From Chrysomallon squamiferum (Eukaryota; Animalia; Mollusca), in the NCBI GenBank assembly GCA_012295275.1, contig CM022670.1, forward strand, positions 8,804,001 to 8,868,000: 64,000 nt of DNA, written 5' to 3'. Below the pieces are notes generated by a model that worked only from the letters and a program-made list of their open reading frames with translations, searched no databases and had not been told where the DNA came from. Positions 7,293 through 60,883 of the stretch are shown in pieces; within the stretch, counting starts at the first letter, position 1, and every line of letters starts with the position of its first letter. Both the position numbers and the translations under genes were made by a program.

Positions 7293-7388
7293 ACACACAC
7301 AGTGTATATATATATATATATATACAGGCACACCCAAACAATACTATGCATACACATAGCCTCATATACACATCCACAGACAGCAAAC

Positions 7389-7428
<40 letters not shown>

Positions 7429-7658
7429 TACACATACATGTGCAAACATACTCTGACAGAATCACTGACAGACACACATATGGACAGTCAGCACCTACCT
7501 TCTTCCTGTTGTGTCAAATGACATAGATGTAATTGCTGTGTCCCCATGGGCATCACCATATTCAAATATAGCAGTTCCTGTCTCAAAGTCCCACAACTTT
7601 ATTACCTGAAACAAACACAACAACTGTTTATCTTTTACACACCAGCAACCCACTTTAC

Positions 7659-7755
<97 letters not shown>

Positions 7756-10354: not shown

Positions 10355-10401
<47 letters not shown>

Positions 10402-12436: not shown

Positions 12437-12476
<40 letters not shown>

Positions 12477-12961
12477 ATATTATGTATCACATACACTTAT
12501 ATATAAAACAAAGAATTATATATATCACATATTACATATAAAATGCATGGTTCTATTTATATATATATATCATTTATTTTTTTGAATTACTGATGATTTT
12601 AATGTTGGTTTTTAAATGTATGTATGTATGTATGTATGCATGCATAGATAATAGATAGCTACATAGATACATGTATATTAGATTATACATACATATTATA
12701 CAAGTCTTAATTTCATACATTATACATCCGTCTATCACAGACAGATGTAGATATAGTCAAACGTGTATATTAAACTATGATGTAAACGCAAGTGTGTTAA
12801 ACATGAGACTGTCTACCTGCTGAACCCAGTCTCCGTGGACCTGCCAGCGAAGAAACTGAACATTAGGACCACTTGCTACAACATCCAGACTGACACTGGC
12901 AATAAAACCATCCTGTCTCGGCATCTTCTTCCACGTCCTGACAATAACAACAACAACAGTT

Positions 12962-13017
<56 letters not shown>

Positions 13018-13078
13018 AATAGTAATAATAGCAAAAATGATAATAATAATGATGATGATGATGATGTTGATAACAATG

Positions 13079-13109
<31 letters not shown>

Positions 13110-13299
13110 AATAAAACAAAAAGTAAGGATAAAAATATTATTGATAAAATAATAATCCTAGGAGAATAGAATTAATAATTTAGATGATGACATTGTTAAT
13201 AGTATTAATATTAAAAATAATAATAATTCAGTACTAACATTAATAATGTTAATAATAATTATAATTATTAAAAAAATAACATTAATATTAACAAAAATA

Positions 13300-13354
<55 letters not shown>

Positions 13355-15776: not shown

Positions 15777-15823
<47 letters not shown>

Positions 15824-16105: not shown

Positions 16106-16480
16106 CTGTAACACAGAGCAAAACACTTGTTACAGCTGTAACATGGAAAAAAAACATCTGGTACACTGATAACAGAAGAAACAACATTAATTACATTTGT
16201 AACCTAGAACAAGAACATTTGTCACAGCTCTAACATAGAACAACACAATTTATTACATTTGTAACACACAGAACAAAAACATTTATTACAACTGTAACAC
16301 AGAACAAAAACAATTATTACAACTGTAACATAGAACAAAAACAATTATTACAACTGTAACATAGAACAAAAACAATTATTACAACTGTAACATAGAACAA
16401 AAACAATTACAACTTACATAGAATAAAAAATTTTTGATTAGAACCATTTGTTACAATTGTAACAGAACAAAACATTGTTA
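16106..16480. repeat. 31-bp minisatellite derived from a splice acceptor
   Basis: Unit AACTGTAACATAGAACAAAAACAATTATTAC; near-perfect copies at 16290, 16321, 16352, 16383 with degenerate copies either side. Confidence 0.8.
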
Positions 16481-33548: not shown

Positions 33549-33880
33549 CAAACATTTTGAAACGTTTCAGTAATTGGGTTATTCTTTACTGAATCTTTTT
33601 CGTTAGTGGGGAAAAAAATCAAAAACAGAAAACACCCCAAAATAATAACAACAACAACAACAACAAAAATATAATAAATAATAATACTAATATTCTATAG
33701 CATACATGTACATTTATTTTCACTATTCCTTGTTTATACGGTTCTAATTGTTCAAAATATTGTTTCACTTAGTTTTGACTCACTTGTTAGAAACTTACAT
33801 TATATAAATATTATTTGTTATTCTGCTTTATAAAAAAAAAAAAAAAAAAAAAAGAAAAGAAAAAAAGCGAAATGATACAT

Positions 33881-33962
33881 CGACGAGGATGGGATTCGAA
33901 CCCACGCGGGCAGAGCCCAATGGATTAGCAGTCCATCGCCTTAACCACTCGGCCACCTCGTC
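33881..33962 (-). tRNA. tRNA-Ser(GCT), intact (copy 1)
   Basis: GACGAGGTGGCCGAGTGGTTAAGGCGATGGACTGCTAATCCATTGGGCTCTGCCCGCGTGGGTTCGAATCCCATCCTCGTCG; 82 nt, long variable arm, A/B boxes, downstream T-run. Confidence 0.97.
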
Positions 33963-34285
33963 ATAGTGTTCACATGTTGAATACCTTCATGTACACCGAT
34001 ATATTAAAAAATACTTGCGTATGTTGAATAAAAATGACATTAAGTAGAATTAAAACAAAATGCTTTTGGTGCAGTTATAAGTCAAAACAAAACAAAACAA
34101 AAAATAATAATAATAATAATAAATTTTGTATTAAGTTATATAAAAGTAATGTTAACTTCAGTCACTATAATTAAAAATGAAATTATAGACTATTATAACT
34201 ATTAAATGGTATAGAGATGAAAAACAGAAACTATATTTCAAAAATTAGAATTACTATTAAAAAAAAAAAAAATAAAACACATCAT

Positions 34286-34367
34286 CGACGAGGATGGGAT
34301 TCGAACCCACGCGGGCAGAGCCCAATGGATTAGCAGTCCATCGCCTTAACCACTCGGCCACCTCGTC
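34286..34367 (-). tRNA. tRNA-Ser(GCT), intact (copy 2)
   Basis: Identical 82-nt sequence; downstream T-run. Confidence 0.97.
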
Positions 34368-35397
34368 ATGGAGGTCACATATTGAATACCTTTATGTACA
34401 CATTTAAAAATGCTTAGATACGTTGAATAAAAAAAACAAAAACAAAAACAAGAAACTTTTCTTCTTTTTTCAAAATAATATTCTTAAGATGCTTCAATGC
34501 TTTGACAACATTTATAAAAAGAAGAAGGAAAAAAAAAAGGCATATTGGTTAATTTTCTAGTTAATACTTTTTAAATTCTTTATATTATTATTTTATTTTA
34601 TTTTATTATTTATTTTTGTTTTGTTTGTTTGTTCCTTTTCCATCCCGTCACCACACTAGATATAATATAATTTTTGTTTTCATTGTTATATAGGGAAAAT
34701 GTATATAAAAGTTCCTTGTTGTTAGTCGGTAACAATAAAGCCTGTGAAAGTGGTGACAATAATGGGTTTATCTGTTCTCTTCGACATACTCTTTATGGAC
34801 GATTTCTGATTAACTACTCACAATCTGCTACGCCGGCCATTTTGATAAGCAAACAGTAGTGTTTTCTTAATCGCTTGTATGTGAAAGATGTTTTTCCAGA
34901 TGTATTTGTTATTTAACTGCTGTGGTTTTGTGAAGAACGTTGAAGCTTACTTCCAGTTCGTAAGTATATGCGGATCTTACTTTATTATTGTCAAGTTAAA
35001 TGGCTTGTTTGTGTATGAAATAAAATGCTGGAGCATCTCCAAAAAGTCATTTATATGGTTCATTATAAATAAGGGAAAATACTTTAAATTTGTTGCCTCA
35101 GTGAATAATATTCTCGTGTTGCTTCAATGCTTTTGATCACATTTTCAGCTTATCAGCGAAATAAGTTAATTAACATATCTCAGAGGCTTGGCAAAAAATC
35201 GTAAAATCATTCATTAAAACCTTTTGACACATTTGACACATCTGTTAATAAATATATTTCTATAGAATAGACAGAAAAAATGAAAGAAATAAAAAGTGAT
35301 AGACTTATAAAGAGAATGAAATAAGTAATCTTGAAAACAAATTATTAGCATATCAAAACGTTACAAATACTGTATAAAAAAAGAGTAAAGAATACAT

Positions 35398-35479
35398 CGA
35401 CGAGGATGGGATTCGAACCCACGCGGGCAGAGCCCAATGGATTAGCAGTCCATCGCCTTAACCACTCGGCCACCTCGTC
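35398..35479 (-). tRNA. tRNA-Ser(GCT), intact (copy 3)
   Basis: Identical 82-nt sequence; downstream T7 run. Confidence 0.97.
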
Positions 35480-35633
35480 ATACGGGTTACACGTTTAACT
35501 TTCATAACAGTAAAAATAAAAATAAATAAAAATAAATAATAATAATAATAAAAAAATATATTATTCATCGAAGAGGATGGGATTCGAACCCACGCGAGCA
35601 GAGCCCAATGGATTAGCAGTCCATCGCCTTAAC

Positions 35634-36077
35634 TTTTTTTTTTGTTTTTTGTTTATGAGATGTGTTTATTATACAGAATGAAACAATGATTAAAAACAGA
35701 GAAAATAGTTCAGTCCTTCATTTCACCTTCCTCGTCTTCTTCTTCTACTCCACGAATATACAAAACATTATTGCATCTGATCAAACATTCACCAAGATTT
35801 CCTGCCAGTGCTCCATCAATGTATTCTTCTGTATTAGCCAACTGAAGATTCATGTAGCCATCCACAGACACCAAATAACCTTTGTACTCCATTCCCCATT
35901 TCAGTTTCACCATCACAGGTTTGCCAGTTAACTGATTCAAGAAGGGTTTTGGGTTCATAGGCAGCGTCGCCATTTTGTAATTATTGTGTATGTCTCTACT
36001 TTAAATGAAAAAAATCGCAAGTAATGTCAACATTCATAAAACTAGTAATCGTCCACCAAACGTGCTCTGAACACCAT
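35634..36077 (-). mobile_element. processed retrocopy of SmF mRNA (104-nt 5'UTR, CDS, 3'UTR, poly(A)), 444 bp
   Basis: Poly(A) remnant at 35634-35643, AATAAA at 35665-35670 (minus), intronless ORF, TSD 35622-35633 / 36078-36089. Confidence 0.92.
35710..35973 (-). CDS. SNRPF: small nuclear ribonucleoprotein F (SmF), intact intronless retrocopy, 87 aa
   Basis: [54 protein letters not shown]...[12 protein letters not shown]; typical SmF Sm1/Sm2 motifs. Confidence 0.95.
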
Positions 36078-36257
36078 CATCGCCTTAACCACTCGGCCAC
36101 CTCGTCATACGGGTTACACGTTTAACTTTCATAACAGTAAAAATAAAAATAAATAAAAATAAATAATAATAATAATAAAAAAATATATTATTCATCGAAG
36201 AGGATGGGATTCGAACCCACGCGAGCAGAGCCCAATGGATTAGCAGTCCATCGCCTT

Positions 36258-38107
36258 TTTTTTTTTTTTTCTTTTTTAATAATTTTATTGAATCAAAATA
36301 GTGTAAAAACATTATAAAAGTTCAGTTTATACAAGTGATAAATCAAAACTTCTTTGAAAATATATATATATTTTTTTTAAGTAAAAAATAAAAAGAAATA
36401 TATTTTAAGACATATTTTAGATGTTAATGTACTGATAAAGTCTTCTAAAGCACCACAGCTGCAGACAAACATTATTTCATAGAAACATTAGGTCTGATTC
36501 TAACTGGTAATATAAATTATCTTACAAAGCTTCTACCTTCTTTATCTGGAATGATGTAAATGATCACATTTGAACAAACCTTTGTGAACATCAGTAAATG
36601 AATGGTTAAGCAAAAACTTGTTTTCTTCTTAAAACCTGGAATAAGTCATGTGTTTGCCAATCTTGATGATGAGCCACTTGAAGAACACTCTTCACCCGTA
36701 TTGGCTGTTGACTGTTCACAGAAAGCTCTTAGAGCATGGATCAGTTCTAATGAATTATTAATGTTAGTTGTTGTCTGAGCCATTTCACTGCAAAACTGGT
36801 CAAAAGATTCACGAGAATCATCTTTCCTACGAATATTTCCAAAAGCACTTTCAGCCATGAGTACAATTTGGTTTTGTACATCCTCCAAAGTACAAACATG
36901 TTCTTTTTCAGCTTCCACATTCAGCTATCATTGGGTGTAAACCTACACTGTAAGATACACTGACCGGGTAAATTGTATAAAAGTCTTCCAGAATCCATCT
37001 TGGACATTAGAATTATGTAAAAGCTACTGTCAGTAAAACGATGTTTTAATTTTTGTTTCAACACTGATCTATTTCCAAGTGCAAGTGTTTCTCAACAGGT
37101 TGTATCTGCTCATAATCAGCAATGTGGATTTTCATCTAACAACTGGATGGCTTACTAGATTGTTAGCATTTCTTAGTCAAATGGCACCGTGATCAAAATT
37201 ATTACTAATTTTATTATATCAAATGTATCAGTTATTATTTGGAAAGAAGTACTTATCTCGACTGATATATTTATGATAAGAACAAAATGGACTTGAAATC
37301 CATTAATTCAATCACCAACACATTTCTTCATAGTGCAGCAATAATAAAGCATACAGTTTGAAAAATTGCTTCTTTTCAATAAAATGATTTTCTCCCCTTC
37401 CAGGATGATTTTCATTTTCAGATGCTTTGCATGGTGTCAGAAAGGTTTAAAATTCTGTACGGACATTTTTCTGTTCAGTTCGGCAAGGACAATGGAATAC
37501 TGCAAAGCTTTCTCAGGCGGCACATTGGCAAACATGTCTTCCTCTGGAAGTGGCTTCACTTCTTTTGCTACTTTGTCTTCAGATTTTGACCTATTTAACG
37601 AGCCCTTTGGACGACCCCTCCTTTTCTTAGAACTGTCATTCACATTCTCAGTTTTGCTTTCACTTTTAGTTCTAAATCTTTTTGTTGTGTATTCAATATC
37701 TAAAGGATTGAAAAAGTCTGGTCTAACTCGTTTCGTCCTAACTGATCTTGTTTGTTTTGGCATGTTATCTTCTTTTCCAGGAGGACTTTCTTTGTCTTCA
37801 GATGTTCCAGAAAGACGTCGACATGGGAAAGTGAAACCACATGCACATGACTTACATGCTACAGGTATCTGTTTCTCGCATGTTGGACAGGACTTAACTA
37901 CAGTGCGGTCAATTTTCTTTCCTTTTGCCACTTTCATTGTGGATTTTTTGGCTATTTGATCAATTTTATTTTGAACAGACATTATTAATATGAAAAAGCT
38001 ATAACCTTGTTATGTAATTATATGTCAACTGCTGACGATAAAAGTCCTTTATCTTATAAAAAAATATTAAAACTAAATATCCATTCTACAGAACTTACTT
38101 CCTATAT
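36258..38107 (-). mobile_element. processed retrocopy of C16orf87-like mRNA (125-nt 5'UTR, CDS, about 1.17-kb 3'UTR, poly(A)), 1850 bp
   Basis: Poly(A) at about 36256-36270, AATAAA at 36284-36289 (minus), no introns or microsatellites, TSD 36244-36257 / 38108-38121. Confidence 0.9.
37437..37982 (-). CDS. C16orf87: UPF0547 protein C16orf87 homolog, intact intronless retrocopy, 181 aa
   Basis: Zinc ribbon KSCPTCEKQIPVACKSCACGFTF, AT-hook-like KRRGRPKG, C-terminal EDMFANVPPEKALQYSIVLAELNRK. Confidence 0.9.
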   Translation of the reverse strand: MSVQNKIDQIAKKSTMKVAKGKKIDRTVVKSCPTCEKQIPVACKSCACGFTFPCRRLSGTSEDKESPPGKEDNMPKQTRSVRTKRVRPDFFNPLDIEYTTKRFRTKSESKTENVNDSSKKRRGRPKGSLNRSKSEDKVAKEVKPLPEEDMFANVPPEKALQYSIVLAELNRKMSVQNFKPF

Positions 38108-38444
38108 CAGTCCATCGCCTTAACCACTCGGCCACCTCGTCCTACACGTAACGTGTTGCAAACAGACAATTCACAATAAATAACTACTCTTCCATCTCCT
38201 CTCATGTATTGCCTACTGATTTATGGAACGACTTCTACTACTGCTAGACGTAGTATAAGTAATAATAACGTCAACAACAACAACTAGTTTATAGAAATGT
38301 TAGCTTTGAACATGGGAGAAGACAGAATGGAATTATAGAGTAATACACGTATAAAGAAAATCACATAAGAAATCTTGAAAAACGTTATGAGTTATAATTT
38401 TGTTACACATTTTAAAATACTGTTTAAAAGGAATAAAGAAACAT

Positions 38445-38526
38445 CGACGAGGATGGGATTCGAACCCACGCGGGCAGAGCCCAATGGATTAGCAGTCCAT
38501 CGCCTTAACCACTCGGCCACCTCGTC
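38445..38526 (-). tRNA. tRNA-Ser(GCT), intact (copy 6)
   Basis: Identical 82-nt sequence; T4 run about 16 nt downstream. Confidence 0.96.
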
Positions 38527-38938
38527 ACATGTATTGCATATTGATATATGGAACGACTAGTAATAGTATTAGTAATAATAACAATAACAAAAACAATTAT
38601 TAAATATTATAATATGTATAATAATTGTAACTGAATGCAGCATGGTTATCAGTGTATGTTTTTCTAAACTATTTCTACAATGAGGATATGAATCAAATCC
38701 AAACTCATTGGATTAACGGTCCTTTACTACTCTGCCCTCTGTTGTTGAATAAAATAAATAAATATACAAACAAACAAACAAAGAACAGACATTATCTGAA
38801 TCTTTATTTTAGAGGATTCAAACAACTGTAAAAAGAAGAGCATATTTTCAAATGATCTTGAATGATTGTCATGGTCAGAAAGCTTTAAACAAACAGAGAC
38901 GATATGAAGTAATGAAAATGAGGTTAATGAACAAGGCA

Positions 38939-40314
38939 TTAGTCTTCCTCCTCCACGATTGGTTTTCCAATCTTTTCCACACCCTGCCATTTCAGTCTCT
39001 GCAACTCGTTCAGCTCAAAGTACGAGAGAGGGTCGTCTTCTATGAAGTCATCATACTCCATCTCTATATCCACAGAAGCGACATCTGACGGTGAGTGGAC
39101 ACTACGAGACGGCGACAGGGTTTTATTTGTTTTTGAGCTACTATTGCTGGCTGAGGAAAGACAACTCTTGGGTGTTTCTTCGCGCGAAGCTTTCGGGCTC
39201 TGACCGTCTGGTTTTGGAAGGAGATTTTCCCTCTCTTCCATAGCAGACGAGTTTTCAGACGTCCTGCTTTTAACGTTTTGCTTTTTAGATTTCGCCGGCT
39301 TAGCAGCGTCCGGTGTTTTGTCCTTGGGTTTAGCAACGATGGAGTCTTGTGAATAAGTTTCAGTCAGCGAAACTGGACGACGTGCCTTCACGTTTGGCTG
39401 AATGAACGACGTCGTCTCCGCGTTCTCTTCATCAGCGAAAGCCAAGTCACTGCTGTCTTTGCTTGTTCCACACGGGTCCTCCCGCATCGTGTTTAACACT
39501 ATCACATCATTCTGAGGAGTCTTGTCGTCCCCGGGAGAAGACGTTGGAAACGAGTCTGCCAAATTTCCATCGGTGAATCCTGTGGGTGTTGGTGTTTCAG
39601 GAGACGCTACGGGAACTGACTGCTGATGTCCAGACGAAGATGACGACGACCCGGTCACAACTCTGTCCATGTTAGAATTAAGCTTCTCCTGTCTTTTTTT
39701 AGTGAGAAGATCGAACTTAGTTGTCGAAGGCGAAGTGGGACTTGCTGCAACTGGGGAACGTTTAAGTTTAGGAGATGGATGCACTTTGGGTGATCGGCAC
39801 TTTCTGAGGTTAGGACTTGCTTTGAAGAAATCGGCGTCGTGCAAAAACTCTTCAGGTGAATTATTTACAGAGTACGGACTTGCTAGTGGTGTGTAGTTCT
39901 TGGTTGATGGTTTCGGGCTGCCGTTAGCTACAACAGACTCCGCTTTGGATCGAAGCTTTTTCAAGCCCGTACTGCACGTGCTAGAAATGGACGAAGCGCG
40001 TGACGCACGTGATTCCTTTTTCTTTTTGTCCCCGGTCAGCGGGGCTTCGATATCCACGTGTGTGATGCACGGTGGGGGGCTGCTTGTGCGTGAACTCTGA
40101 CCGCTGGTACTTCTAGCTGGCAAATGGACAGGACTCTCTGATGATGTCATCGCGTATTTGTAGCGTTTGTGGTAAAATCTGTGAAAAAACACGAAGGCGA
40201 CTGTCACGATGATGATGATGCCACACAAGGCAATTCCGACTACAGCAACTTTGCTGTCGAATATAGACGTCTGTCCTTGTCTCAGAATGGTAGACGGAAC
40301 TACTGCTTGACTAA
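38939..40314 (-). CDS. THSD1: terminal exon: transmembrane helix and cytoplasmic tail
   Basis: VAVVGIALCGIIIIVTVAFVFF followed by HRFYHKRYK; long S/P-rich ORF to TAA at 38939; AATAAA at 38803-38808. Confidence 0.87.
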
Positions 40315-41402
40315 CTGCAAAACAAGATTGTAAGTAGATTAATTATATGAAGTGATATATTAGTGATTCAGTATTATTTGGCTAATAATAATAATAATAA
40401 TAAGAAGAAGAAGAAGAAGAAGAAGAAGAAATGAAAAGAAGAAGAATGAAAGAAAAAGAGAAAGAAAAAATACTGAGTAACCAATGATGAAAGATGTAAA
40501 GATTTATCACTTGTTTTAATTCAAGGAATATCATAACATCATTTCACTGTCTTTTATATAATAAAGAAGATAAACACAGAAAGAAAGATGGGAGAAATGG
40601 ACAGACAAATAAATAGATAGATATATATATAGATAGATAATTGTTTTGTGTGTACAATTCACTGAACGGAAGCATTACAGTCCTAACATACGAAACTGTA
40701 TATTTTTCTGTCGAAATAGATGGGGAAAAACAATTTAGTAGGTCATGGAAATCTAATAAAACATTTAAAATATCCTTCGGTTCTTTTTTGAATTAGTAAA
40801 AGAGAAATATGGAAAACCGTTTCAACCATTTTCCATTTCGTTGTTCACATTGGTTATCGTTACCATACACCTGACAGGTGGCAGCACTTCATTAGTACAC
40901 AAACGTTTTCAACCAGTCTGCTAACAATCATAATTTACTTTATATGAACAAATTACGTTAACGTACCAAATGATGAATATGACGCAATAAATCCGTGAAC
41001 GTGAATGGGGAGCGTGGCACTGGATGACAAGATGGCCAATGAACTGGGAGATGAGCTGTTCACCGACGGCGTCGAAACAACCAATGAAACGAGTTCTATG
41101 AACATGCGGTTTGAAGTCGATATGACGTCACCGGAAGGCGTATCTCCGTCTGACGAAAACAGCAAATCGTCGTTAGCAGATTCACCGTCGCGCACGTGCA
41201 CCAGTTGTTTATCCTCGAATAAACTGAAATATTTAAAAGTCAGTCTGATCTTGTATTTTCTGGCAACCTCGATGTTCCAGATGCCGTGCCTACATCGTCC
41301 TGTCGCGATGATTTCTCCCTTCGCTGACGTCATCTGACAACCACAGGCACACATCAATGTTATGTTCGCCGACGTTAATGGGCTGGCTGGAATTGGTTCT
41401 GC

Positions 41403-41463
<61 letters not shown>

Positions 41464-41783
41464 GAAACACCAGTCATAATCTGGATAATCAAAAAGGAAG
41501 GAAATGTCCTTTACGATTATTTGTTCTCCGTTCATTTAATCATAATTAAAAGAACTCCAAGGGCAATATGCTAAAACTCTAAATAAAAACAAAAGATAAA
41601 ATACTGGTTATTTCATATATTAACAGGGAGATTATTCTGAAAATAAATAACTGCTGTCCAAATGGATTACCTCCCTTGACTATTCTATTATCACGAAAAT
41701 AATAACCAAATTGAAATAGTTATTAATTTTTAAATTTTTAATAGAATATTCCGTTTTTCCCTCAGACCAGTTATTATTATTAC

Positions 41784-41829
<46 letters not shown>

Positions 41830-42303
41830 TTGAACATTAAGAAAGAAGAATAAAAATTAAAAATTATAAACACTCCCTGATAGCGTATATCTTTTCGAGA
41901 AATAAATTTCAGTAAAGACTGTTACTAAATCTGCAGTTGTTGTTAATCTAATAACACAAACTATAACGTTTTTATGAGGAATACGTCTCAAACTATGTAG
42001 CCGATGTTGTAAAGGAGAAACTTGAATTGCATTTAAATCATTTTACACTTGTATTTTTGAGACGTTATTAACAAATAATGTTTATTTAATTGATCTATAC
42101 AAACGTGACACTTGATTGAGTTTTAAAAGTCTAGCATAACTGGATTTTTAAACTTTATAAACTGGGATGTGATTTTTTTTTTTTTTCACAGAAACGTCCC
42201 CACTCCAAAACCTTCATTTTCCGTTCACCCAGTGCCGATAACACCCGATAACACCCGATAACACCCGATACCACCCGATCACCTCTTTATTCATAAAAAC
42301 GAT

Positions 42304-42352
<49 letters not shown>

Positions 42353-43752
42353 GAAAGAAAGAAAGAAAGTAAGAAAGAAATAACAATAAAAAAATCTTCC
42401 ACAAGAAACAAAAGAAGAAGAAAAAGAAGAAAATGGGGTTAAAACGCTTAAAACGCAGATTTCAAATGGGCTGGGAAAAAAGTATACTGTATTGTATTTT
42501 GATTTATTTTTGTACTAGACTGTGTTAAATCTCCATATATCACACACAGCTGCAAACCACAAAGTTAATTTGCTTTGTTTGCAGTGTAACTATCACAGAG
42601 TACAATCACTGGGTCCATATTAATATCACCAGGTAAAAAATAACCAAAAACAACAATACCAAAACATACAGTCAGACACACAATAAATAAAATAATACAA
42701 AATAAAAAAAATAAAAACAAAATATACAAAAAAAAAAATTATTAAAAAATAAACAAACATAAACTGAATAAAAATAAATAAATAATTACCAAAACTAACA
42801 GACAGATATGGTGTCAAATAATTTGTTTTGAAACTTTATGTTTATTGTGACTTTTACTATGTGAAAACTAAAGCAAAACAACAGTGTACTAGCTATAATT
42901 CATCTGCCTTTGACATTAATTGTTCACACATGGTCAAACCTGCTTGTTCGTAGATTTAAAATAAACTATAATGTATACTGAATTTACGAAAAAATTATCA
43001 CAAATAGTGTACATTTCTCACAAATTTCCAGCGTCATTTTTATTTTCTACATTCGTCTTTCAGATCTTGATATTTTGGACTATTCACCTGACTTGCTAAA
43101 GGAACAAAACTTACTGTGGCATATTTTTATATACTGTTTTTATATACTTTGTATTTTTCTTTAGAAATCTTGACAAAAGAAAGCTAGACTTCGTAAATAT
43201 AAATCATAAAGATTTTATTCATGTTACAAAAAGAACTGTAATATATATATTTATGCAAGCATGGCATTTTTTGTTATTATTATTATTATTTTATTTATTT
43301 ATTTTATTTATTTATTTATTTATTTATATTCATTAATTAATTAATTTATTTTTTATTTTACAAAACCCAAAAAAAAAAAAAAAAAAAAAAAAATAAATAA
43401 AATAATAATAATAATTATTATTATAAAAATTAAATAAAACAACAACAAATAATAAAAAAAAAAAAAAAAAAAAAAATAAAAGAAATATCCCAAAAAGAAA
43501 AAAACCCCATCTTCGCTCAGAAAAAAAACTGACCCCACCAGAAAAAAACCAGAAAAAACCCCAGAAAAAATCTCTTCAAAACTGCCATACAACAAAAGCA
43601 CAGCAACCCAAATAAAAATATTTAAACAACAGCAACAACAACAACAACAACAACAATAATAATAAATAAATAATTAAAAATTAAAACATAAAAATAAATA
43701 AGTAAATAAATAAATAAATAAATAATAAATATTAAATAAATAAGTAAATAAA

Positions 43753-43818
<66 letters not shown>

Positions 43819-44412
43819 GATAGTAAAGTAATATTAAAACCCAAAGTAAAACCAGTTTTTCCCATTTCCGAAATTACAGACACTATTGAATACAAGACGT
43901 TCAGGTTCGGATCGACATTATGCGATCTGCCACGGTATTAATTGGGTTATTCACCAAACTGCGAGAGAGTTTCGTGAAAACTTGTCGTACGACAGTAGGT
44001 AAATATCAGTTAATTAGGTGGACAGAAATAACTCATTTTAACCAAGTATTTACATTCAGTTATTGATTCAGCCGAGATGTCTCTGTGTTTGCCGATCAAG
44101 CCTTAATTATTGTTGTAGAAAGAGACGGCATACCTACAGTAGTTCGTTTTAAATAGCAGCAATCAGCGTTATGAAGTAGAACGTAATTATACTCTATAAC
44201 CGAATGAATCAGTGAATGAATAAACTAAAAAAATCAAGCGTAATTATACACTACTGTAATAAATAAATGAATAAATAAACCAAAGAAACAAAAATATAAC
44301 TGTTAATTTCTGTAATATTCATGTAAATATAAAGTATGTACCAAATTTAGCCTAGAAATAAAAAAAAAAAAAATCTAAAAAAAAAAAAGGTTGGAATAGT
44401 ACCGAAAATTTA

Positions 44413-44459
<47 letters not shown>

Positions 44460-45092
44460 TAGTATTAATAATAACAACAACAATAATAATAACAATAATA
44501 ATAACAATAACAATAACAACAACAACAACAACAACAATAATAATAATAATAATAATGTATACACATAAAACAATTACCTGCAGGACACTTATTATAGCAT
44601 TCTCGCCACTGGACAGTCTGCCCGGGGCAGAACCGCCCTCCGTGGAGGGGGTAGGGGCTGTTACACATACGAAATCGACTTCTCTTTCCTTTACCACAAG
44701 TTACAGTACATTTTGACCACACTGACCAGTTACTCCAGCCGCCGTCTATAGGTAATACTGAAAAATACAAAGATTAGCTCATCAAATTAGTAACCTTAGA
44801 TACTTTTACCGTAATAAAAATAAAAATGTAAATTATAAACAATAACAGTAGTAGCAGTAGTAGTAATAGTATTATTAATGGAATAACAGAATAACAATAG
44901 TGATAACAGCAGCAGTGGTTGTATTAGTATTAGTGTTAGTAATAATAATAATGATGATGATGATGATTATGGCAATAACAATAATAGTAGTAACAGTACT
45001 ACTAGTAATAGAAGCAGTAATATAATAGTGATAGTAGTAATGGTAATGATATTAATGATGTAATCTCTGAAACATTTTTATTATTATTATTA

Positions 45093-45155
<63 letters not shown>

Positions 45156-45172
45156 TATTATCTTTATTATCT

Positions 45173-45203
<31 letters not shown>

Positions 45204-45784
45204 TATTACTATTATTATTATTACTGACCTTACTCTTAATCCTTATATTTCTTTAACTCATTATCAGAAAACTTTAAAAACTATTTTAAAGATAACTGAA
45301 ACTTTTAAAACGATCTCTAAAAAACGCAATAACTTAAGTCTCCAGCCGTCTTGCTTCTGCTGTCGCAGTTCTTAATTGGACAGTTACCTAGATCCGTATT
45401 CCATTACGTTTTTCTTTTTCTTTAAGTGAACTTTGAAGTTAAAAGAGATCATAAATAATTTTGTACTGAAGTAACGACATTAAAAATAGCTTTATATGGA
45501 AACTCTTTGAATCAGTAGAGTGAAATCTGGCATTTAGAGAAAACATCGATTATTAACGAGGTGTATGCAACACGAAGTATTCATTTTGAACAAGAAATAA
45601 AAAAAAAGGGAAAGAAAAGGAAAAAGGAAAAATATAACCCTAATGGCTATATGTGCATGCTACTGAAACATAAAATACAGACATCTTTAAGCAATAAGAA
45701 GATCAAAGTAAACATTAAAAAATCTACCGAATTACTAAAACGACAGCAATATATATATATATATATTTTGTATGGTTTGTTGTA

Positions 45785-45839
<55 letters not shown>

Positions 45840-47879
45840 GAATTTTTCATAACAGCTCTATTTATTCAGTCTGCGAAATGATCTAGGTAAGAGCTGTCTT
45901 TGTATTCAGATTCACTGATTCAAAAGAACATTTTTGTTTTGTAAGTTGAGGTTATATTGTAACGTATATTTTGGAGTTTCTAGGATGAACAAATCTTTTG
46001 GTGTTATTCTATGGATATCCGCTACTTTAAGCAAGGTATCGTTTACATTCGCTTGTAAAAATACTAGAAAAGCTATTTAACAAGGTCTTTGGTTATATAT
46101 GTATCGGAAGATCGATCATTCCATTGCATTTTGAAACAGATAGGTTTTATTTGAACCATACAATAACTATACTGTACTAAAATCTTTCTTTATAATGCTT
46201 TTTGCCTGCATCTGTCACAGAATCTACGCAGAAATACGTAACAAGAATTAGGTAATATCTACACTGATAATCGTCATTCCAGATCTATATTCTCCACTTC
46301 AGCGTGAACGTCATCAAGCGGGTTGAAACCAAATTACACCAACTCCCGATGTTTGCCTCTAATCTGGCTTCGGGTATCCATAACGGACGGGACAGTTATT
46401 CCAAGGGCTTTGTCGCGTATTGTTTCAAATAAACAGAGGACAGTTGAAGAGATTCATCGGAGTGAACGGCGGCCTTTGCCCACCGTCCATTAATACCTGG
46501 AATGAACTGGCGGGGACGTTCCAGTCATGACCTCTGGGTGATCGATGATGTTAACCCAGGTGAACTGTTGCACAATGCGAGTCAGCTGAGGCAGATACAC
46601 AAATCATGTCAGTTTCAGCGCTGGACTGTGTTTGCAGACTCGGTGCATTTCATTACCAGTAATAGCAAAGCAGTATTTTGATTTAGAAGTATTTTGACTT
46701 AGAAGTATTTTGATTTAGCAGCATTTTGATTTAGAAGTATCTTCACTTAACCCTTTCATTTTTGATCCCCATAATCATAATAAATGAAGTTCACTCAGTA
46801 GATACTTCACATATATATGTTTTTAGAATTTTATTTCTTTAAAACACTGATCACAAACTGTATCGCATGTATTCTAAGGCAACAATAAGTGTAAAATGAC
46901 ATTCCAACGATTTTTTTTTTTAATATTATACATTACAACAATCAATCTACAAAAAAACACCTAAAAAACACCACCAACAAACAAAAAATACAAATAAGTT
47001 ATCAAGTCTGCTTTTGATTCATTTTATCCACATCATTCTTAAAACCATGAATAACAAAAGGCCTTGAAGCACGTAATAACAAAATCTTTGCGTCACCAAG
47101 ATTAAATGTCATTTTTTTGTTCGACTTTGTTGACGTAAATAGGAAAGTGGCAGTCCTCTCTCATTGTTATTACATACAAAAGGTTTAGCGGCAATTAGAC
47201 AGTCAGCCAGCCAAGACTTGTATCATTTTACCGTTAAATTATTAGCGGGGATCAAGTAACTTCATTAGTTTGCTTAAACTTGTAATTGTATAAGCCATGC
47301 AAAAGTTATTTTGATTTATGGCGAATATGTCCTTTCGTTTTTCTCTGCCGAAAGAGAAATGTATTTACTTCATACATGGGACGTAATAAGGCGGAAAGCA
47401 GTTTCTTCACTACTCTGGTTACAATACATACATACATACATACATACATACATACATAAATATATATATTTGAAATGTTTATATCTTTCTGCAAAATCAG
47501 TGGCGCTCTCAATACGTTTCTAAAATCAAGGCTTTGTGCTTTAATTGTAAGTAGGATTTCTTATATCGTTTTATCTTTTTTTTTAATTTATTTTATTTTA
47601 TTTTATTTTTTTATCATTTTCTACATATTATAGAAAATGAAGGAGGTAAAAACAATATTTTATCAATTTAAAATTTTAAAGATCAAATAAACGAAAGAAG
47701 GAAATTCTGACTGTTTCGTAAATGATCGAATGAATAAAGGATGGAAGGTATAATAAATTAAATTAAGCTAAATAAATAAATAAAAGAGACAAAAAAATAA
47801 TAATAATAAAATAAATGAATAAAAATAAAAATAAAACAAAACAATACAAACAAAGAAACAAAAAGTAGAATATCTAAAG

Positions 47880-47924
<45 letters not shown>

Positions 47925-48825
47925 ATAGTTATTAAAATAAACAAATAAATAAAACAAACACACAAATAGAAAAACACAAAATTAAATAAAGAAATATGTA
48001 ATATATAATATAAAAATAGACAGATTGGGATGTAAATAAGCAAACAAACAAACAAAAAAAAAAAAAAAAAAAAAAAAAAAAACATTTATATATAAATAAA
48101 TAAATAACAAAGTATCAAAGTCTGACAGCTTGAACATAACGACTGGAACAAAAGCCGTAATATCTGATTTCACTGTTTTACAACCTGGGTAGAGATATAA
48201 ATTTACAATCAATATTATATATATGTAATTCATATTAAAAATGAACTTTTTCTTTTAGCAAGATAGATACTGATATACTGGTCCCCAGGAGAGTGTACTA
48301 TGATTTTTATTTTTATTTTGATCCACAGTTTAATATACGTATAATGAGAGAGACAGAAAAAAAAAAAAAAATTGAAAATAGATTTAACCGAGTTGTTTGT
48401 CAGCTGCGCTATAACTTGCATTTTGAGAACTCGCGACATGTAATATATATGGATATACAAAGAGGATATGTTGCTGTGACAAGTAAGGTCAATGATAATC
48501 CAGTAGCAACCAGGTGGTCTCTCTGTATTCTGAGTGATAATATTTCGACTGGGCTTTCGTAACATTTGTATAAAAATAAATAAGTTAAATAAAATAGTAA
48601 CCATATAAGACAACAACAACGAATGAATATATTGCGGGCTTATAATAATGATGATAATAATGATGATAATGAGTATGACGATTTTAATGAAGATGATGAT
48701 CGTGATAAGAATAGTAGTAGTGGTAGCAGTCGTAGAAGTAGTAATAGTAATTCTATAATAATAATAATCATAAAAAGAGTAAATAAAAAACACAAGAAGT
48801 TAACTAAATCTTCAATACACTGAAT

Positions 48826-48858
<33 letters not shown>

Positions 48859-49290
48859 AATCATAAATAAATGAAACATAACAAATATAAAAAATAGATA
48901 AGTAAATAAATAAATAAATAAATAAACGTGTAAGCGATGGGGAGGTGAAAAATGAAAATTGAAAAATTTCTACAAATTATGGGGACAAAAAGCAAGGACC
49001 GAGTCTCCAGGACAAAGCACAACTTGTTACAACTAAACACACTTAAAACGAAGGAGATACGGAACAACACCTAATGTAAAACATCAAACACGTGTTAACT
49101 TACCAAATATCATGTATTTCCATTAGGCAACAATAAATAAAACAGTATCAATTATTTCACTGGGTTTTTGTAACAGTACAATATACAATTAAATTAATTA
49201 ATTAATGAACAAAATTAATGCTTTATGATATCACAGATTATTTTTGATGAGTACTTTTTAATTTTTTTGGTCATATTATGTTAGCTTCAA

Positions 49291-49358
<68 letters not shown>

Positions 49359-49437
49359 ACTCTCTTACCCTTGTGTATGTGGGTTATTTCTAAACAAGAA
49401 TTAAAATCTAAAACATATACATACAAACAGACAGACA

Positions 49438-49484
<47 letters not shown>

Positions 49485-50573
49485 AAACTCACATGCAAGT
49501 ATGTATATTACAGATGCGGAAATTAGATTCCTTAACCCAAGTCATTAACATATATTATTCAAAAAAAGAAAAAAAACCCCATTCAAACCTGAATCTGGAT
49601 GAGCTGCTAAACACAATTGTTTCTGCTCCTGCACGGCGCCATTTCGTGCCATGCTAACATAGGAAAAACAAAATCCAGCCGACGAATCATTAAATATATC
49701 ACATTGCAGAGAAACGGACGTCATATCCGGATGAGCGAAACGTTCCGTGATGTATTTCCGGTACAGTGGCGCCGCCATGGACCCATTTGAGATCCGTTTC
49801 AATTCGTAAACCCTAATTCTGTCCATTAACGTCACATCGGTCTTAGCGCACGAAGGCTGGGTATAAAACACGGTAACACGATCTCGGCACGGAAACACAC
49901 TGTCCGAACGAATGCTCAGGCCGTACCGTTTACTCCACACGACATGCATGATATTGCTCATAGAAACTGTAGACGAGGTTAGAGCGGACCTGAGCACGGC
50001 TTGGTAAACTCCGTTTAAATCGAACAAAATACAAGGGAACCTAAACTGCGAAACAGATTTGGAAATAGCTGTGTAATTTACTGTCTGAATCAGGTACGAT
50101 TCGGATTTCAGTATAAACCCGGTTGTGACGTTTTTCCTCTGAAAATATAAATCAACTTGCATCTCCGTCTGGTGCACGTTTTGATTCACACTTGGCCTGA
50201 GATGTGACATTGAGGTTAACTGAGGAGGTGAGGGCGAAGAGGCTTTCTGGCAGAGTCAGGCGGAACTGCGGCCAGCGGACCTCCATGAAGGACTGCGTGA
50301 GGACCTGGCCGCCGTTGTACTCGTACATCCTGAAGACGTACCGTCCCGCCTTGTCGATGATGCCACACGAGAATCTTCCAGAGCGGACTGCCAGCGGAAC
50401 TCGCTGAGTCTGAATTTCTTCGTCTTCGCCGTTTGTGCCAATGAACATGAGTCTGACGAAGGCGTTTGGGAAAGTCTGGTTGGCAGGAATTTGGTATTGC
50501 ATTTCTAGGTCTCCCGAGAAAGCCACGTACGTGTCTGGGACGATGACTTTGCAGAGATTGTGACAAGGGTTTT
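38939..50573 (-). CDS. THSD1: golden goal (gogo)/THSD1-like single-pass receptor (GOGO-type ectodomain, TSP1, CUB, TM, Ser/Pro-rich tail); 5' exon(s) not located
   Basis: Four phase-1 exons 50573-49589, 44757-44578, 41398-40967, 40314-38939; domain order as in Drosophila gogo; acidic tyrosine motif DIEMEYDDF near the C-terminus; +1 frameshift near 50180. Confidence 0.75.
40967..41398 (-). CDS. THSD1: CUB-domain exon
   Basis: CACGC...IWNIEVARKYKIRLTFKYFSL...VHVRDG...VISTSNRMFIE...GFIASY; phase 1/1, 432 nt. Confidence 0.87.
42234..42280. repeat. 10-bp tandem repeat CCGATAACAC, about 4.5 copies
   Basis: Direct reading. Confidence 0.75.
44578..44757 (-). CDS. THSD1: TSP1-domain exon
   Basis: IDGGWSNWSVWSKCTVTCGKGKRSRFRMCNSPYPLHGGRFCPG...C; phase 1/1, 180 nt. 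Confidence 0.9.
46668..46740. repeat. 16-bp tandem repeat AGAAGTATTTTGATTT, about 4.5 copies
   Basis: Direct reading. Confidence 0.7.
49589..50573 (-). CDS. THSD1: gogo/THSD1-like ectodomain exon (contains a 1-nt frameshift)
   Basis: NPCHNLCKVIVPDTYVAFSGDL...FSCGIIDKAGRYVFRM...EVRWP, then after the shift HQTEMQVDLYFQ...FPCILFDLNGVYQA...GFCFSYVS...QLCLAAHPDS; 985 nt where 984 is required. Confidence 0.8.
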
Positions 50574-51876
50574 CTGAAAAAGAGAAGGGGGAAAAAATAT
50601 ATATATATTTTTTTAAATTTGATTGTAATAAAAAAAGACTAGAGAAAGTGATGGTGACTTCATGGAATCAAATACAAAACATGCACACATCACAAATTCA
50701 TTGATTATAATTAGAGCAAGGACACCAATAAATAGATAGCTAGATAGATAGATAGCCAGACAGATAAATTGATAGATAGGCAGATAAATAGATAGATAGA
50801 TAGATAAATAACTAAAGCTGTAACAGTCAATTTAAATGATTTAGAAAACTTTTATGTATTTGTGTAGAATATATGAATAGCATAGAATCCCTTAATTAGT
50901 TGTTGTTGTTGTTGTTCGTGTTGTTGTTACTGTTGTTGTTATTTAATGGCAATAGTAGTATCTCTCGCATTGAAAGCAGCAGAAACAATAATAGTAGTAG
51001 TAGTGGTAAATATATTTTCTTTAAGACGCTAAATTAACTGAATTATCATACATTATGTCTGTGCAAAGCTACACTATCAAGATATCACAATACCAAACCA
51101 CTCGACATAACTTTTTTTTTGTTATCGGAACAGAATATTTTGACACACGTGTGTATCCTTCTTGCAATACACTTCAGTTTAAGTAATTCTGTCTAAGATG
51201 CTCCGAGGCATGATTATGACGTCATAAATTTACGAATAAGGTTCGTTGCGCGGCACTCGCTAGCGGTGATGGGCATGTTTGAACAATTTGTCTTCTCGTG
51301 TGATCGAAATTCGTGACTGGTTCACCGTCGTGTAACAAACACTGATAACACAGCCTTGTTTATCAGCTTGAGCGCATCTCTCTATCGGAAAACTGTCGCA
51401 CGTTTCCTTTGACAGTGGAAGTCCGCTAACTGATTAGATATTTGTGTGGCGCCCCTGAAGTTTAAAAGGTAGCCGGTGTTGGGAACACACACACACGCAC
51501 ACGCACACAAATACAAACAAATACACACACCCACACACACACACACGGAATCATAAGGAACAAATATTTTTTATCAAAAACATATATCGCTCGTTTACAG
51601 ATTAAATTAACTGGTGTTATATTTAACACTACATTTTATTATACGGAAAAAAAAAACCACCAAAAATTATTATCATGGGATCGACAATATGTTTTTAGTC
51701 TGTGCTTTTATTAGGTTTCACAATGTGCTTTTTATTAGATTTTGTAAATTTTTATAACGGTGATATGTCAGAATCTAGCTTGCAACTGCCATTTCTTAAT
51801 TAAAAACGTTTTCACAGAATATGTTCATAGTGACTTCCTTCAGTCTTCAATCACATTAAATAAAGCAATGAGTACT

Positions 51877-60303: not shown

Positions 60304-60883
60304 CTGGTACATAAATAATAAAGCAGTGCTTGTATTTATATATGTCTGGCACATTAATAATAAAGCAGTGCTTGTATTTATATATGTCTGGCACATTAAT
60401 AATAAAGCAGTGCTTGTATTTATATACCATTAATAATAAAGCAATGCTTGTATTTATATATGTCTGGTACATTAATAATAAAGCAATGCTTGTATTTATA
60501 TATGTCTGGCACATTAATAATAAAGCAATGCTTGTATTTATATATGTCTGGTACATTAATAATAAAGCAGTGCTTGTATTTATATATGTCTGGCACATTA
60601 ATAATAAAGCAGTGCTTGTATTTATATATGTCTGGCACATTAATAATAAAGCAGTGCTTGTATTTATATATGTCTGGTACATTAATAATAAAGCAGTGCT
60701 TGTATTTATATATGTCTGGCACATTAATAATAAAGCAGTGCTTGTATTTATATCTGTCTGGCATATTAATAATAAAGCAATGCTTGTATTTATATCTGTC
60801 TGGTACATTAATAATAAAGCAGTGCTTGTATTTATATATGTCTGGTACATTAATAATAAAGCAATGCTTGTATTTATATCTGT
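60304..60883. repeat. 42-bp minisatellite, about 14 copies
   Basis: Unit ACATTAATAATAAAGCA(G/A)TGCTTGTATTTATAT(A/C)TGTCTGG(C/T); one copy has a 9-bp deletion near 60425. Confidence 0.93.

What the first reader, a model, noticed from the sequence alone, without database searches (positions are those of the whole stretch)
35398..38141. Two unrelated host mRNAs retro-inserted at the same site of adjacent tRNA-Ser(GCT) genes: tRNA-targeted mRNA capture
Seen: tRNA copies 4 and 5 are each split in the D-arm/anticodon stem by an intronless, poly(A)-tailed mRNA copy (SmF; C16orf87). Both inserts are in the tRNA-sense orientation, both have short TSDs (tRNA nt 18-29 and nt 21/23-34, only 3-5 nt apart), and both keep a 5'UTR, intact ORF, AATAAA and tail. 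Established: poly(A) plus TSD plus intron loss is the signature of target-primed reverse transcription by non-LTR retrotransposons acting in trans. L1-made retrocopies are normally dispersed, whereas some non-LTR lineages (e.g. Tx1-clade Dewa/Keno, R2/R4 group) are sequence-specific for multicopy RNA genes. Inference: two independent hits to one ~17-bp window in a very AT-rich 64 kb are unlikely by chance. That implies a tRNA-Ser-specific endonuclease/RT with relaxed RNA choice that writes cellular mRNAs into tRNA arrays, a natural site-specific RNA-to-DNA gene-insertion system. I do not know of this having been described, but could not check.
Basis: partly seen in the sequence, partly recalled or inferred. 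Interest (0 to 1): 0.96.

Follow-up and report, generated by a model that had tools for sequence, protein, structure and literature searches.

The report
Two mRNA retrocopies splitting adjacent tRNA-Ser genes
Two different cellular messenger RNAs were copied back into DNA and pasted, three to five bases apart, into the same spot of two neighbouring serine-tRNA genes of a snail-type genome; this likely reflects a copy-and-paste element that aims at that spot, but the element itself was not seen.

Summary
Six tRNA-Ser(GCT) genes lie on the minus strand. Four are intact. Copies 4 and 5 are each split by a sense-oriented insert with an encoded poly(A) tail, an AATAAA signal and a target-site duplication (12 bp; 10-14 bp).

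- Deleting each insert plus one duplication copy restores a complete tRNA-Ser gene.
- Insert 1 (444 bp) carries a full 87-aa SmF ORF.
- Insert 2 (1850 bp) carries a full 181-aa UPF0547/C16orf87-like ORF, 89% identical to the Gigantopelta aegis protein. It also carries a second, unexplained conserved ORF.

Two separate retro-insertions in one 17-bp place cannot be chance, so some form of targeting is well supported.

The rival is an ordinary L1-like machinery drawn to Pol III genes and using their only TTAA. No genome is held. The window holds no RT/endonuclease ORF (0 of 103).

tRNA-gene-specific LINEs and poly(A)-driven mRNA retrocopying are each known. I found their combination in no paper. 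Verdict: real, n=2, a new variant of known kinds, interest 0.6.

The parts
35397..35480 (-). Intact tRNA-Ser(GCT) copy 3. It serves as the reference for the uninterrupted target. The other intact copies are at 33880-33963, 34285-34368 and 38444-38527.
   Evidence: ARAGORN; Rfam RF00005, 66.3 bits.
35568..35633 (-). Copy 4, 3' portion (tRNA sense nt 18 to the 3' end). It carries two substitutions that copy 5 shares.
   Evidence: blastn-short, 97% over + strand positions 1-66; sequence.
35622..35633 (.). TSD of insert 1, left copy (CATCGCCTTAAC, tRNA nt 18-29).
   Evidence: Overlap of the two tRNA pieces at positions 55-66; read directly.
35634..36077 (-). Insert 1: 444-bp retrocopy of an SmF (small nuclear ribonucleoprotein F) mRNA. 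Its 5'UTR is about 104 nt. The tail A6CA10 is at 35634-35650 and AATAAA at 35665-35670.
   Evidence: Sequence. Removing it restores the tRNA.
35710..35973 (-). Intact SmF ORF, 87 aa.
   Evidence: Pfam LSM E=5e-23; 94-95% identity over 99-100% of its length to the SmF of Lingula and oysters.
36078..36107 (-). Copy 4, 5' portion (tRNA nt 1-29). Its first 12 bp (36078-36089) are the right TSD copy.
   Evidence: blastn-short, 100% over positions 55-84.
36108..36194 (.). 87-bp spacer, identical to the spacer at 35481-35567. The whole block 36078-36257 is 180/180 identical to 35451-35630.
36195..36257 (-). Copy 5, 3' portion. The left TSD copy is 36244-36257 (maximal) or 36246-36255 (minimal).
   Evidence: blastn-short, 97% over positions 1-63.
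36258..38107 (-). Insert 2: 1850-bp retrocopy of a UPF0547/C16orf87-like mRNA. Its 5'UTR is about 125 nt. The tail A6GA13-15 is at 36258-36277 and AATAAA at 36284-36289.
   Evidence: Sequence. Removing it restores the tRNA.
37437..37982 (-). Intact UPF0547 zinc-ribbon ORF, 181 aa.
   Evidence: Pfam UPF0547 E=6.5e-6, which is below the gathering score; 89% identity to the Gigantopelta aegis C16orf87 homolog, with the same C-terminus.
36649..36924 (-). Second conserved ORF (92 aa stop-to-stop, with no ATG at its start) inside the '3'UTR' of insert 2. Its meaning is unexplained.
   Evidence: 74% identity to the unnamed 107-aa protein P0141; no Pfam or Atlas match.
38108..38141 (-). Copy 5, 5' portion (tRNA nt 1-34). 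The right TSD copy is 38108-38121 (maximal).
   Evidence: blastn-short, 100% over positions 50-83.

Best explanation
Two poly(A)-tailed, TSD-flanked mRNA copies sit in the same 17-bp place of two adjacent tRNA-Ser(GCT) genes. They were likely written there by two separate target-primed reverse transcription events of a LINE-type machinery that is predicted to aim at this place and to choose its templates by their poly(A) tail.

**Shown by the sequence.**
- The antisense strand of the tRNA gene was opened in the D-loop-coding stretch: after ...CCTTAAC for insert 1 and after ...CGCC(TT) for insert 2.
- A cDNA starting on the poly(A) tail is joined to that 3' end.
- The sense strand was opened about 12 nt downstream, in the anticodon stem/loop. 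This gives TSDs of 12 bp and 10-14 bp.
- Both RNAs were copied to, or near, their 5' ends.

**Inferred.**
- The enzyme is an apurinic-type-endonuclease LINE of the L1/Tx1 kind acting in trans.
- Its endonuclease or DNA-binding part recognises this tRNA-Ser sequence.
- One precise first nick after TTAAC, with 3 nt trimmed before priming in one event, would reconcile the two junctions.
- Both events are young. The TSDs are perfect, the two 180-bp flanking blocks are identical and the ORFs are intact.
For: - **Anatomy.** tRNA halves, TSDs, tails, AATAAA signals and sense orientation are all present.
- **Precise insertion.** In-silico excision restores a complete tRNA-Ser(gct) in 2 of 2 cases.
- **Full-length, uninterrupted ORFs**. 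By contrast, the neighbouring genes of the same window are broken into short exons: WD40, EF-hand and CUB/TSP1/THSD1 pieces.
- **No shared 3' motif** other than the polyadenylation signal and the A-run, so template choice by poly(A) is the simplest reading.
- **Better generic sites were available.** The window has 715 TTAA and 263 TTTTAA/TTAAAA sites at 30% GC, yet both events used the single TTAA region of a 59% GC tRNA gene.
- **Youth.** The blocks flanking the inserts are 180/180 identical, including an 87-bp AT-rich spacer.
- **Precedent.** tRNA-gene-specific non-LTR elements exist: NeSL-1_TV, LIN15_SM and LIN25_SM (PMC4640811, passage). L1-Tx1 LINEs are reported in 35 mollusc species (PMC10294476, passage). 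L1-clade LINEs mobilise mRNAs through the poly(A) tail (PMC3472496, abstract start in the listing).
Against: - There are only two events, in one window.
- No RT, endonuclease or transposase domain is found in 0 of 103 ORFs of 70 aa or more. These 103 were kept from 169 such ORFs after low-complexity ones were dropped.
- No LINE copy is seen at the same site.
- The 3' junctions differ by 3-5 nt, whereas target-specific families are described as having precise 3' boundaries (PMC4640811).
- For insert 2 the nick CCTT/AACC has the TT/AA core of the generic L1 endonuclease site (recalled consensus TTTT/AA), so no special specificity is needed for that event.
- The known tRNA-gene-specific LINEs are NeSL-like restriction-type elements, not poly(A)-dependent L1/Tx1-type ones.
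- The junctions could not be checked against reads.
- Parent genes were not seen.
- Nine runs of three studies hold 45-62% of the stretch's sampled words. Nothing was laid, so it is unknown whether the junction words are among them.
Confidence: 0.5

Rival explanations
1. An ordinary, non-site-specific L1-like retroposition machinery made both copies. The coincidence would come from two layers of bias. The first is attraction to active Pol III genes, through open chromatin or contact with TFIIIC/TFIIIB. The second is that the D-loop TTAA is the only A/T-rich nick site in the GC-rich tRNA body. No tRNA-Ser-specific enzyme would be needed.
For: - The insert 2 junction, CGCCTT/AACC, has a TT/AA core.
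- The insertion place lies directly behind the A-box region (nt 8-19) of the gene (sequence; box positions recalled).
- The 3-5 nt scatter of the junctions fits tethering better than base-specific cutting.
- Retroelements that target tRNA genes through host proteins are known, such as TRE5-A (PMC3706591, passage).
Against: - Elements that target through host proteins are described as inserting at a distance from the tRNA gene, not inside it (PMC3706591).
- The insert 1 nick, TTAAC/CACT, is not an L1-type site.
- Hundreds of better TTTTAA-type sites lie in the same window, including the A/T-rich spacers of the array itself.
- Only tRNA-Ser genes are in the window, so isotype breadth cannot be judged here.
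Confidence: 0.3
2. The structure is not two independent germ-line insertions into tRNA genes. It would instead be an assembly chimera, or the by-product of recombination or duplication of a single event.
For:
- The region is a tandem array with 180/180 identical blocks, which is hard to assemble.
- Copies 4 and 5 share two substitutions, so their histories are linked.
Against: - The two inserts are unrelated sequences with different junction positions and different TSDs, so one event cannot give both.
- A mis-join would not create perfect TSDs, nor leave tRNA halves that rejoin into a complete gene.
- Every recombination model I could build still needs two separate hits at this place. The models were a prior 171-bp tandem duplication, a 183-bp TSD with the second nick in the neighbouring copy, and an unequal crossover between two alleles.
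Confidence: 0.07
3. Free cDNAs of abundant mRNAs were captured during repair of recurrent breaks at a fragile point of highly transcribed tRNA genes, without a targeting endonuclease.
For: - tRNA genes are sites of transcription-replication conflict (recalled, not tested).
- Both captured RNAs are housekeeping-type messages.
Against: - The cDNA is joined exactly at the end of the poly(A) tail.
- Both junction pairs show a 10-14-bp duplication with no deletion or filler. That is the mark of staggered nicks and priming on the target. End-joining capture usually lacks TSDs (recalled).
Confidence: 0.05
4. These are ancestrally intronless genes that merely lie between tRNA genes.
For: No parent genes could be shown. 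Both ORFs are intact.
Against: - Poly(A) tails are encoded in the DNA directly abutting tRNA sequence.
- TSDs are made of tRNA sequence.
- The tRNA gene is restored after excision.
Confidence: 0.02

Closest known systems
LINE-1-type processed retrocopies (mRNAs mobilised in trans through their poly(A) tail)
   Same: They share an encoded poly(A) tail, an AATAAA 11-17 nt upstream of it, TSDs of 10-14 bp, uninterrupted ORFs, and no shared 3' motif between the two templates.
   Different: L1 retrocopies are dispersed. Here 2 of 2 lie in one 17-bp place of a tRNA gene, in one orientation. Both are full-length rather than 5'-truncated.
tRNA-gene-specific non-LTR retrotransposons NeSL-1_TV (tRNA-Pro), LIN15_SM (tRNA-Arg) and LIN25_SM (tRNA-Glu); also Dewa (spacer of tRNA-Leu arrays)
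   Same: They show recurrent insertion into a defined place of a multicopy tRNA gene or array (PMC4640811, passage; PMC3706591, passage).
   Different: - Those are the elements' own copies. Here the cargo is cellular mRNA and no element is seen.
- Those listed in PMC4640811 are NeSL-like restriction-type elements.
- tRNA-Ser(GCT) and a gastropod host are not among the cases I read.
[quoted passage not shown]
   Same: The idea is the same: a site-specific LINE protein writes a foreign RNA into a multicopy RNA gene (PMC11371274, abstract start in the listing).
   Different: The R2 target is 28S rDNA, and template choice relies on R2 3'UTR elements (recalled). Here the target is a tRNA gene and the templates have only poly(A) in common. 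Nothing here is experimental.
Pol III-directed retroelements (Dictyostelium TRE5-A; yeast Ty3, recalled)
   Same: They prefer tRNA genes.
   Different: They insert near, not at specific positions inside, the tRNA gene (PMC3706591, passage). Here the gene body is split.
Dada-tS DNA transposons of fish
   Same: They target tRNA-Ser genes at a fixed internal site (PMC8869645, passage).
   Different: Dada is a DDE transposon with 6-7-bp TSDs (PMC3706591, abstract passage) and the target TGGCCG at the position corresponding to tRNA nt 8-13 (PMC8869645, passage). Here there are poly(A) tails, 10-14-bp TSDs and nt 18-34.

Membership tests
LINE-mediated processed retrocopy of an mRNA | Encoded poly(A) tail at the 3' end, preceded by a polyadenylation signal and abutting the target | tested here: met
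   Insert 1 has a tail of A6CA10 and insert 2 a tail of A6GA13-15. Their AATAAA signals are at 35665-35670 and 36284-36289.
LINE-mediated processed retrocopy of an mRNA | Target-site duplication flanking the insert; excision restores the target | tested here: met
   The TSDs are 12 bp and 10-14 bp. ARAGORN calls a complete tRNA-Ser after in-silico excision in 2 of 2 cases.
LINE-mediated processed retrocopy of an mRNA | Coding sequence uninterrupted by introns | tested here: met
   The ORFs of 87 aa and 181 aa are colinear with full-length orthologues. Neighbouring genes in the window are split into exons.
LINE-mediated processed retrocopy of an mRNA | An intron-containing parent gene elsewhere in the genome | not testable with these tools
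   No genome is held. Neither ORF is in the protein collection as an exact sequence.
Target-specific non-LTR retrotransposon system | Independent insertions at the same place and in the same orientation in a multicopy target | tested here: met
   In 2 of 2 inserts the priming nicks lie 3-5 nt apart, the TSDs overlap by 7-9 bp and both inserts are in tRNA sense. With n=2 this is weak.
Target-specific non-LTR retrotransposon system | Precise, identical 3' junction | tested here: inconclusive
   The junctions lie after + strand position 66 and after position 61-63. They are identical only if 3 nt were trimmed before priming, which is an inference. The criterion is from PMC4640811.
Target-specific non-LTR retrotransposon system | An RT- and endonuclease-encoding element occupying the same site | tested here: not met
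   In the window, 0 of 103 ORFs have an RT, endonuclease or transposase domain. The rest of the genome is not testable.
Pol III-tethered retroelements (TRE5-A/Ty3 type) | Insertion at a distance outside the tRNA gene body | tested here: not met
   Both inserts split the gene body at nt 18-34.
Dada-tS DNA transposon | 6-7-bp TSD at TGGCCG (tRNA nt 8-13) and no poly(A) | tested here: not met
   The TSDs are 10-14 bp at nt 18-34 and poly(A) tails are present. Criteria from PMC8869645 and PMC3706591.
Chimeric retrocopy by RT template switching (small RNA fused to mRNA) | The small-RNA part belongs to the insert, inside a single TSD of unrelated target DNA | tested here: not met
   The tRNA parts lie outside the TSDs and continue into the normal flanks of the array. 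Excision restores the gene.

The most novel reading that the evidence does not exclude
This gastropod lineage harbours a poly(A)-dependent LINE whose endonuclease is specific for the D-loop/anticodon-stem stretch of tRNA-Ser(GCT) genes. It therefore acts as a natural site-specific RNA-to-DNA writer. Any polyadenylated cellular RNA can be deposited, full-length and with an intact ORF, into tRNA arrays. That would make those arrays nurseries of retrogenes and the enzyme a candidate safe-harbour insertion tool.
Probability: 0.35. Interest if true: 0.85.

Novelty: new variant of a known kind. Interest (0 to 1): 0.6.

Why it matters
- **Two known phenomena, possibly combined.** Retrocopies of cellular mRNAs are normally scattered. 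Site-specific LINEs are normally thought to copy only themselves or dependants that share their 3' end. A machinery that is both site-directed and indifferent to its template apart from poly(A) would link the two.
- **A route to intact retrogenes.** It would explain how intact retrogenes can accumulate harmlessly in redundant tRNA arrays.
- **A possible tool.** It would offer a natural counterpart to engineered R2-based transgene insertion (PRINT, PMC11371274, listing), aimed at a target conserved almost base for base across animals.
- **If the rival is right.** Pol III-gene tethering of an ordinary LINE, with insertion inside the gene body, would still be an unusual targeting mode for animals.

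Tried and rejected
- **Whole genome.** None is held.
- **Reads.** The look-up of sequencing runs listed 9 holders in 3 studies with 45-62% of the words, 2 of them RNA. These shares support neither the junctions nor expression.
- **Pattern scan of public contig collections for tRNA-poly(T) junctions.** I did not run it.
- **The search for related loci** with the UPF0547 protein in metagenome contigs gave one weak, unrelated locus (L001, 44% identity over 40 residues).
- **Earlier findings of this scan.** There is nothing for this genome or these sequences. The 8 of the 15 'tRNA retrocopy' notes that one search showed concern other phenomena.
- **TSD-plus-tail scan of the whole window for further retro-insertions.** It returned 12 hits. 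Two were the tRNA inserts themselves. The other ten had 10-18-nt A/T-rich or otherwise short repeats that I take as chance.
- **The search of protein representatives** for the second ORF of insert 2 met a full queue three times. The Atlas and Pfam gave nothing.
- **Literature.** Six searches found no paper describing mRNA retrocopies inside tRNA genes. The library lacks most subscription journals, and Kojima & Fujiwara 2004 was not readable here.
- **Rejected readings.** Template-switch chimera, Dada transposon, LTR-mediated retroposition (no LTRs) and ancestrally intronless genes.
Full report
**What is there.** The window is AT-rich animal DNA, 30% GC overall. Its protein-coding genes are split into short exons. 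ARAGORN and Rfam find four intact, identical tRNA-Ser(GCT) genes on the minus strand at 33880, 34285, 35397 and 38444. A short-word BLAST with the intact copy finds four more pieces and nothing else in the 64 kb:
- 35568-35633 with 36078-36107, which make copy 4;
- 36195-36257 with 38108-38141, which make copy 5.

In each pair the two pieces overlap. For copy 4 the overlap is 12 bp (CATCGCCTTAAC, tRNA nt 18-29). For copy 5 it is 10-14 bp (nt 21/23-32/34), with ambiguous ends because TT merges with the tail and CA with the insert. These overlaps are target-site duplications (TSDs). When a script removes each insert plus one TSD copy, ARAGORN again calls a complete tRNA-Ser(gct) in 2 of 2 cases. 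The insertions are therefore precise.

**The inserts.** Both read on the minus strand, the sense of the tRNA.
- Insert 1 (35634-36077, 444 bp) consists of about 104 nt of leader, an 87-aa ORF, AATAAA and a tail of A6CA10. The ORF is a textbook SmF. Pfam LSM gives E=5e-23, and it is 94-95% identical over 99-100% of its length to the SmF of Lingula and oysters.
- Insert 2 (36258-38107, 1850 bp) consists of about 125 nt of leader, a 181-aa ORF, 1.18 kb of trailer, AATAAA and a tail of A6GA13-15. The ORF has the UPF0547 zinc ribbon. It is 149/167 identical to the 176-aa C16orf87 homolog of Gigantopelta aegis and ends at the same residue. The host is thus probably a gastropod close to that genus.
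- The two 3' ends share nothing but the polyadenylation signal and the A-run.
It is 74% identical to an unnamed 107-aa protein, which has no Pfam or Atlas match. No internal A-run marks a junction of two templates. I therefore take it as one long or read-through transcript, but this is unexplained.

**History of the array.** The block 35451-35630 is 180/180 identical to 36078-36257. The first block is the end of copy 3, the spacer and the start of copy 4. The second is the end of copy 4, the spacer and the start of copy 5. Copies 4 and 5 also share two substitutions absent from the four intact copies. One of them breaks the third acceptor-stem pair (my reading of the sequence). Three histories fit:
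- a recent 171-bp tandem duplication followed by two insertions;
- insert 1 arriving with a 183-bp TSD, because the second nick fell at the homologous bond of the neighbouring copy, followed by insert 2;
- an unequal crossover between two alleles that carried different inserts in one copy.

All three need two separate hits at this place, and all imply young events. The perfect TSDs and intact ORFs agree.

**More than chance?** Yes.
- With inserts placed uniformly in 64 kb, the chance that one lands in any of six 84-bp copies and the other within 5 bp of the homologous position in the same orientation is about 4e-6.
- If insertion were confined to the window's 715 TTAA sites, the chance that both use the six TTAA sites inside the tRNA copies in one orientation is about 4e-5.

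Both figures are my arithmetic on the numbers. They are post hoc, but far beyond what a scan of many windows would produce, given how rarely a window holds both a tRNA array and two retrocopies.

**How it most likely works.**
- *Shown.* The antisense strand was nicked in the D-loop-coding stretch, after CCTTAAC for insert 1 and after CGCC(TT) for insert 2. cDNA synthesis started on the poly(A) tail from that 3' end. The sense strand was cut about 12 nt downstream, in the anticodon stem/loop. That is the geometry of target-primed reverse transcription by a LINE.
- *Inferred.* The enzyme is an L1/Tx1-type LINE that accepts any poly(A) RNA. L1-clade LINEs are described as recognising the poly(A) tail (PMC3472496, abstract start in the listing). 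L1-Tx1 elements are reported in 35 mollusc species (PMC10294476, passage). I further infer that the enzyme, or a partner, recognises this tRNA-Ser place. A single first nick at TTAAC/C, with three bases trimmed before priming in one event, would make the two 3' junctions the same. Variable 5' junctions are usual in site-specific families (PMC4640811, passage).

**Against this, and rivals.**
- No RT, endonuclease or transposase domain occurs in 103 ORFs of 70 aa or more. These were kept from 169 after low-complexity ones were dropped. No LINE sits at the site.
- As read, the 3' junctions differ by 3-5 nt.
- The insert 2 nick has the TT/AA core of the generic L1 site (recalled consensus).
- The main rival (0.3) is therefore an ordinary LINE drawn to Pol III genes that uses their only TTAA. 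Against it, protein-tethered elements are described as inserting near, not inside, tRNA genes (PMC3706591, passage). The insert 1 nick is not L1-like, and far better A/T sites abound, even in the array's own spacers.
- Assembly error or a single event (0.07) is hard to square with two unrelated cargos, two different perfect TSDs and restored genes. Still, the junctions were not checked against reads.
- cDNA capture at breaks (0.05) does not give TSDs with tail-exact junctions.
- Ancestrally intronless genes (0.02) are excluded by the junction anatomy.

**Comparison with what is known.** These are processed retrocopies by every feature testable here. Only the parent genes are missing.

As for a target-specific LINE system, recurrence and orientation are met with n=2, the precise 3' junction is inconclusive, and the element itself is not found.

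Several points were read in passages:
- tRNA-gene-specific non-LTR elements are in print: NeSL-1_TV in tRNA-Pro, LIN15_SM in tRNA-Arg and LIN25_SM in tRNA-Glu (PMC4640811).
- Dewa sits in the tRNA-Leu spacer (PMC3706591).
- Dada-tS DNA transposons hit tRNA-Ser at the position corresponding to nt 8-13 (PMC8869645).

Six literature searches found no report of cellular mRNAs written into a tRNA gene at a recurrent site. The library is incomplete, and the key 2004 survey by Kojima and Fujiwara could not be read.

**What could not be done.**
- No genome is held.
- Nine runs of three studies hold 45-62% of the sampled words. Unlaid, this says nothing about junctions or expression.
- A metagenome scan gave only a weak, unrelated locus.
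- Earlier notes of this scan hold nothing on this genome.

**Verdict.** The specific agent is unproven. This is a new variant of known kinds, with interest 0.6. The boldest reading not excluded is a poly(A)-dependent, tRNA-Ser-specific LINE acting as a natural site-specific RNA-to-DNA writer. I give it 0.35.

Noticed in passing
window 36649-36924 (minus), inside insert 2: A second conserved ORF lies 512 nt downstream of the UPF0547 stop codon. It is 92 aa and has no start codon at its head. It is 74% identical to an unnamed 107-aa ENA protein (P0141; its cluster has 2 members) with no Pfam or Atlas match. The retrocopied transcript may have been a read-through or overlapping transcript of two genes.
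   Followed up: partly
window 35572 and 35596; 36199 and 36223: Split copies 4 and 5 share two substitutions absent from the four intact copies. One turns acceptor-stem pair C3-G into C3-U, and the other makes a G-U pair in the variable arm. The hit copies may already have been weakened genes.
   Followed up: partly
window 35451-35630 versus 36078-36257: These blocks are 180/180 identical and are bounded exactly by the 5' junction of insert 1 and the 3' junction of insert 2. This is compatible with an insertion that made a 183-bp TSD by cutting the second strand at the homologous bond of the neighbouring tRNA copy.
   Followed up: partly
window 35634-35650 and 36258-36277: Both encoded tails have the same form: A6, one non-A base (C or G), then A10-15. 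This may be coincidence, a cleavage-site feature or mixed tailing.
   Followed up: no
window 38942-50667 (minus): Exons of a THSD1-like gene: THSD1_N, THSD1 Ig-like, TSP1 and CUB domains, then a 467-aa last exon with a membrane span. Its stop codon lies about 400 bp upstream of tRNA copy 6, on the same strand as the retrocopies, so read-through could transcribe them.
   Followed up: no
window 3217-16129 (minus): WD40-repeat and EF-hand exon fragments of one or two host genes, separated by introns rich in ATT/AAT microsatellites.
   Followed up: no
window 60212-60939: In the ORF listing all four frames that span this stretch translate to reiterated peptides with a period of about 14 aa (about 42 bp), which suggests a minisatellite. 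No repeat finder was run on it.
   Followed up: no
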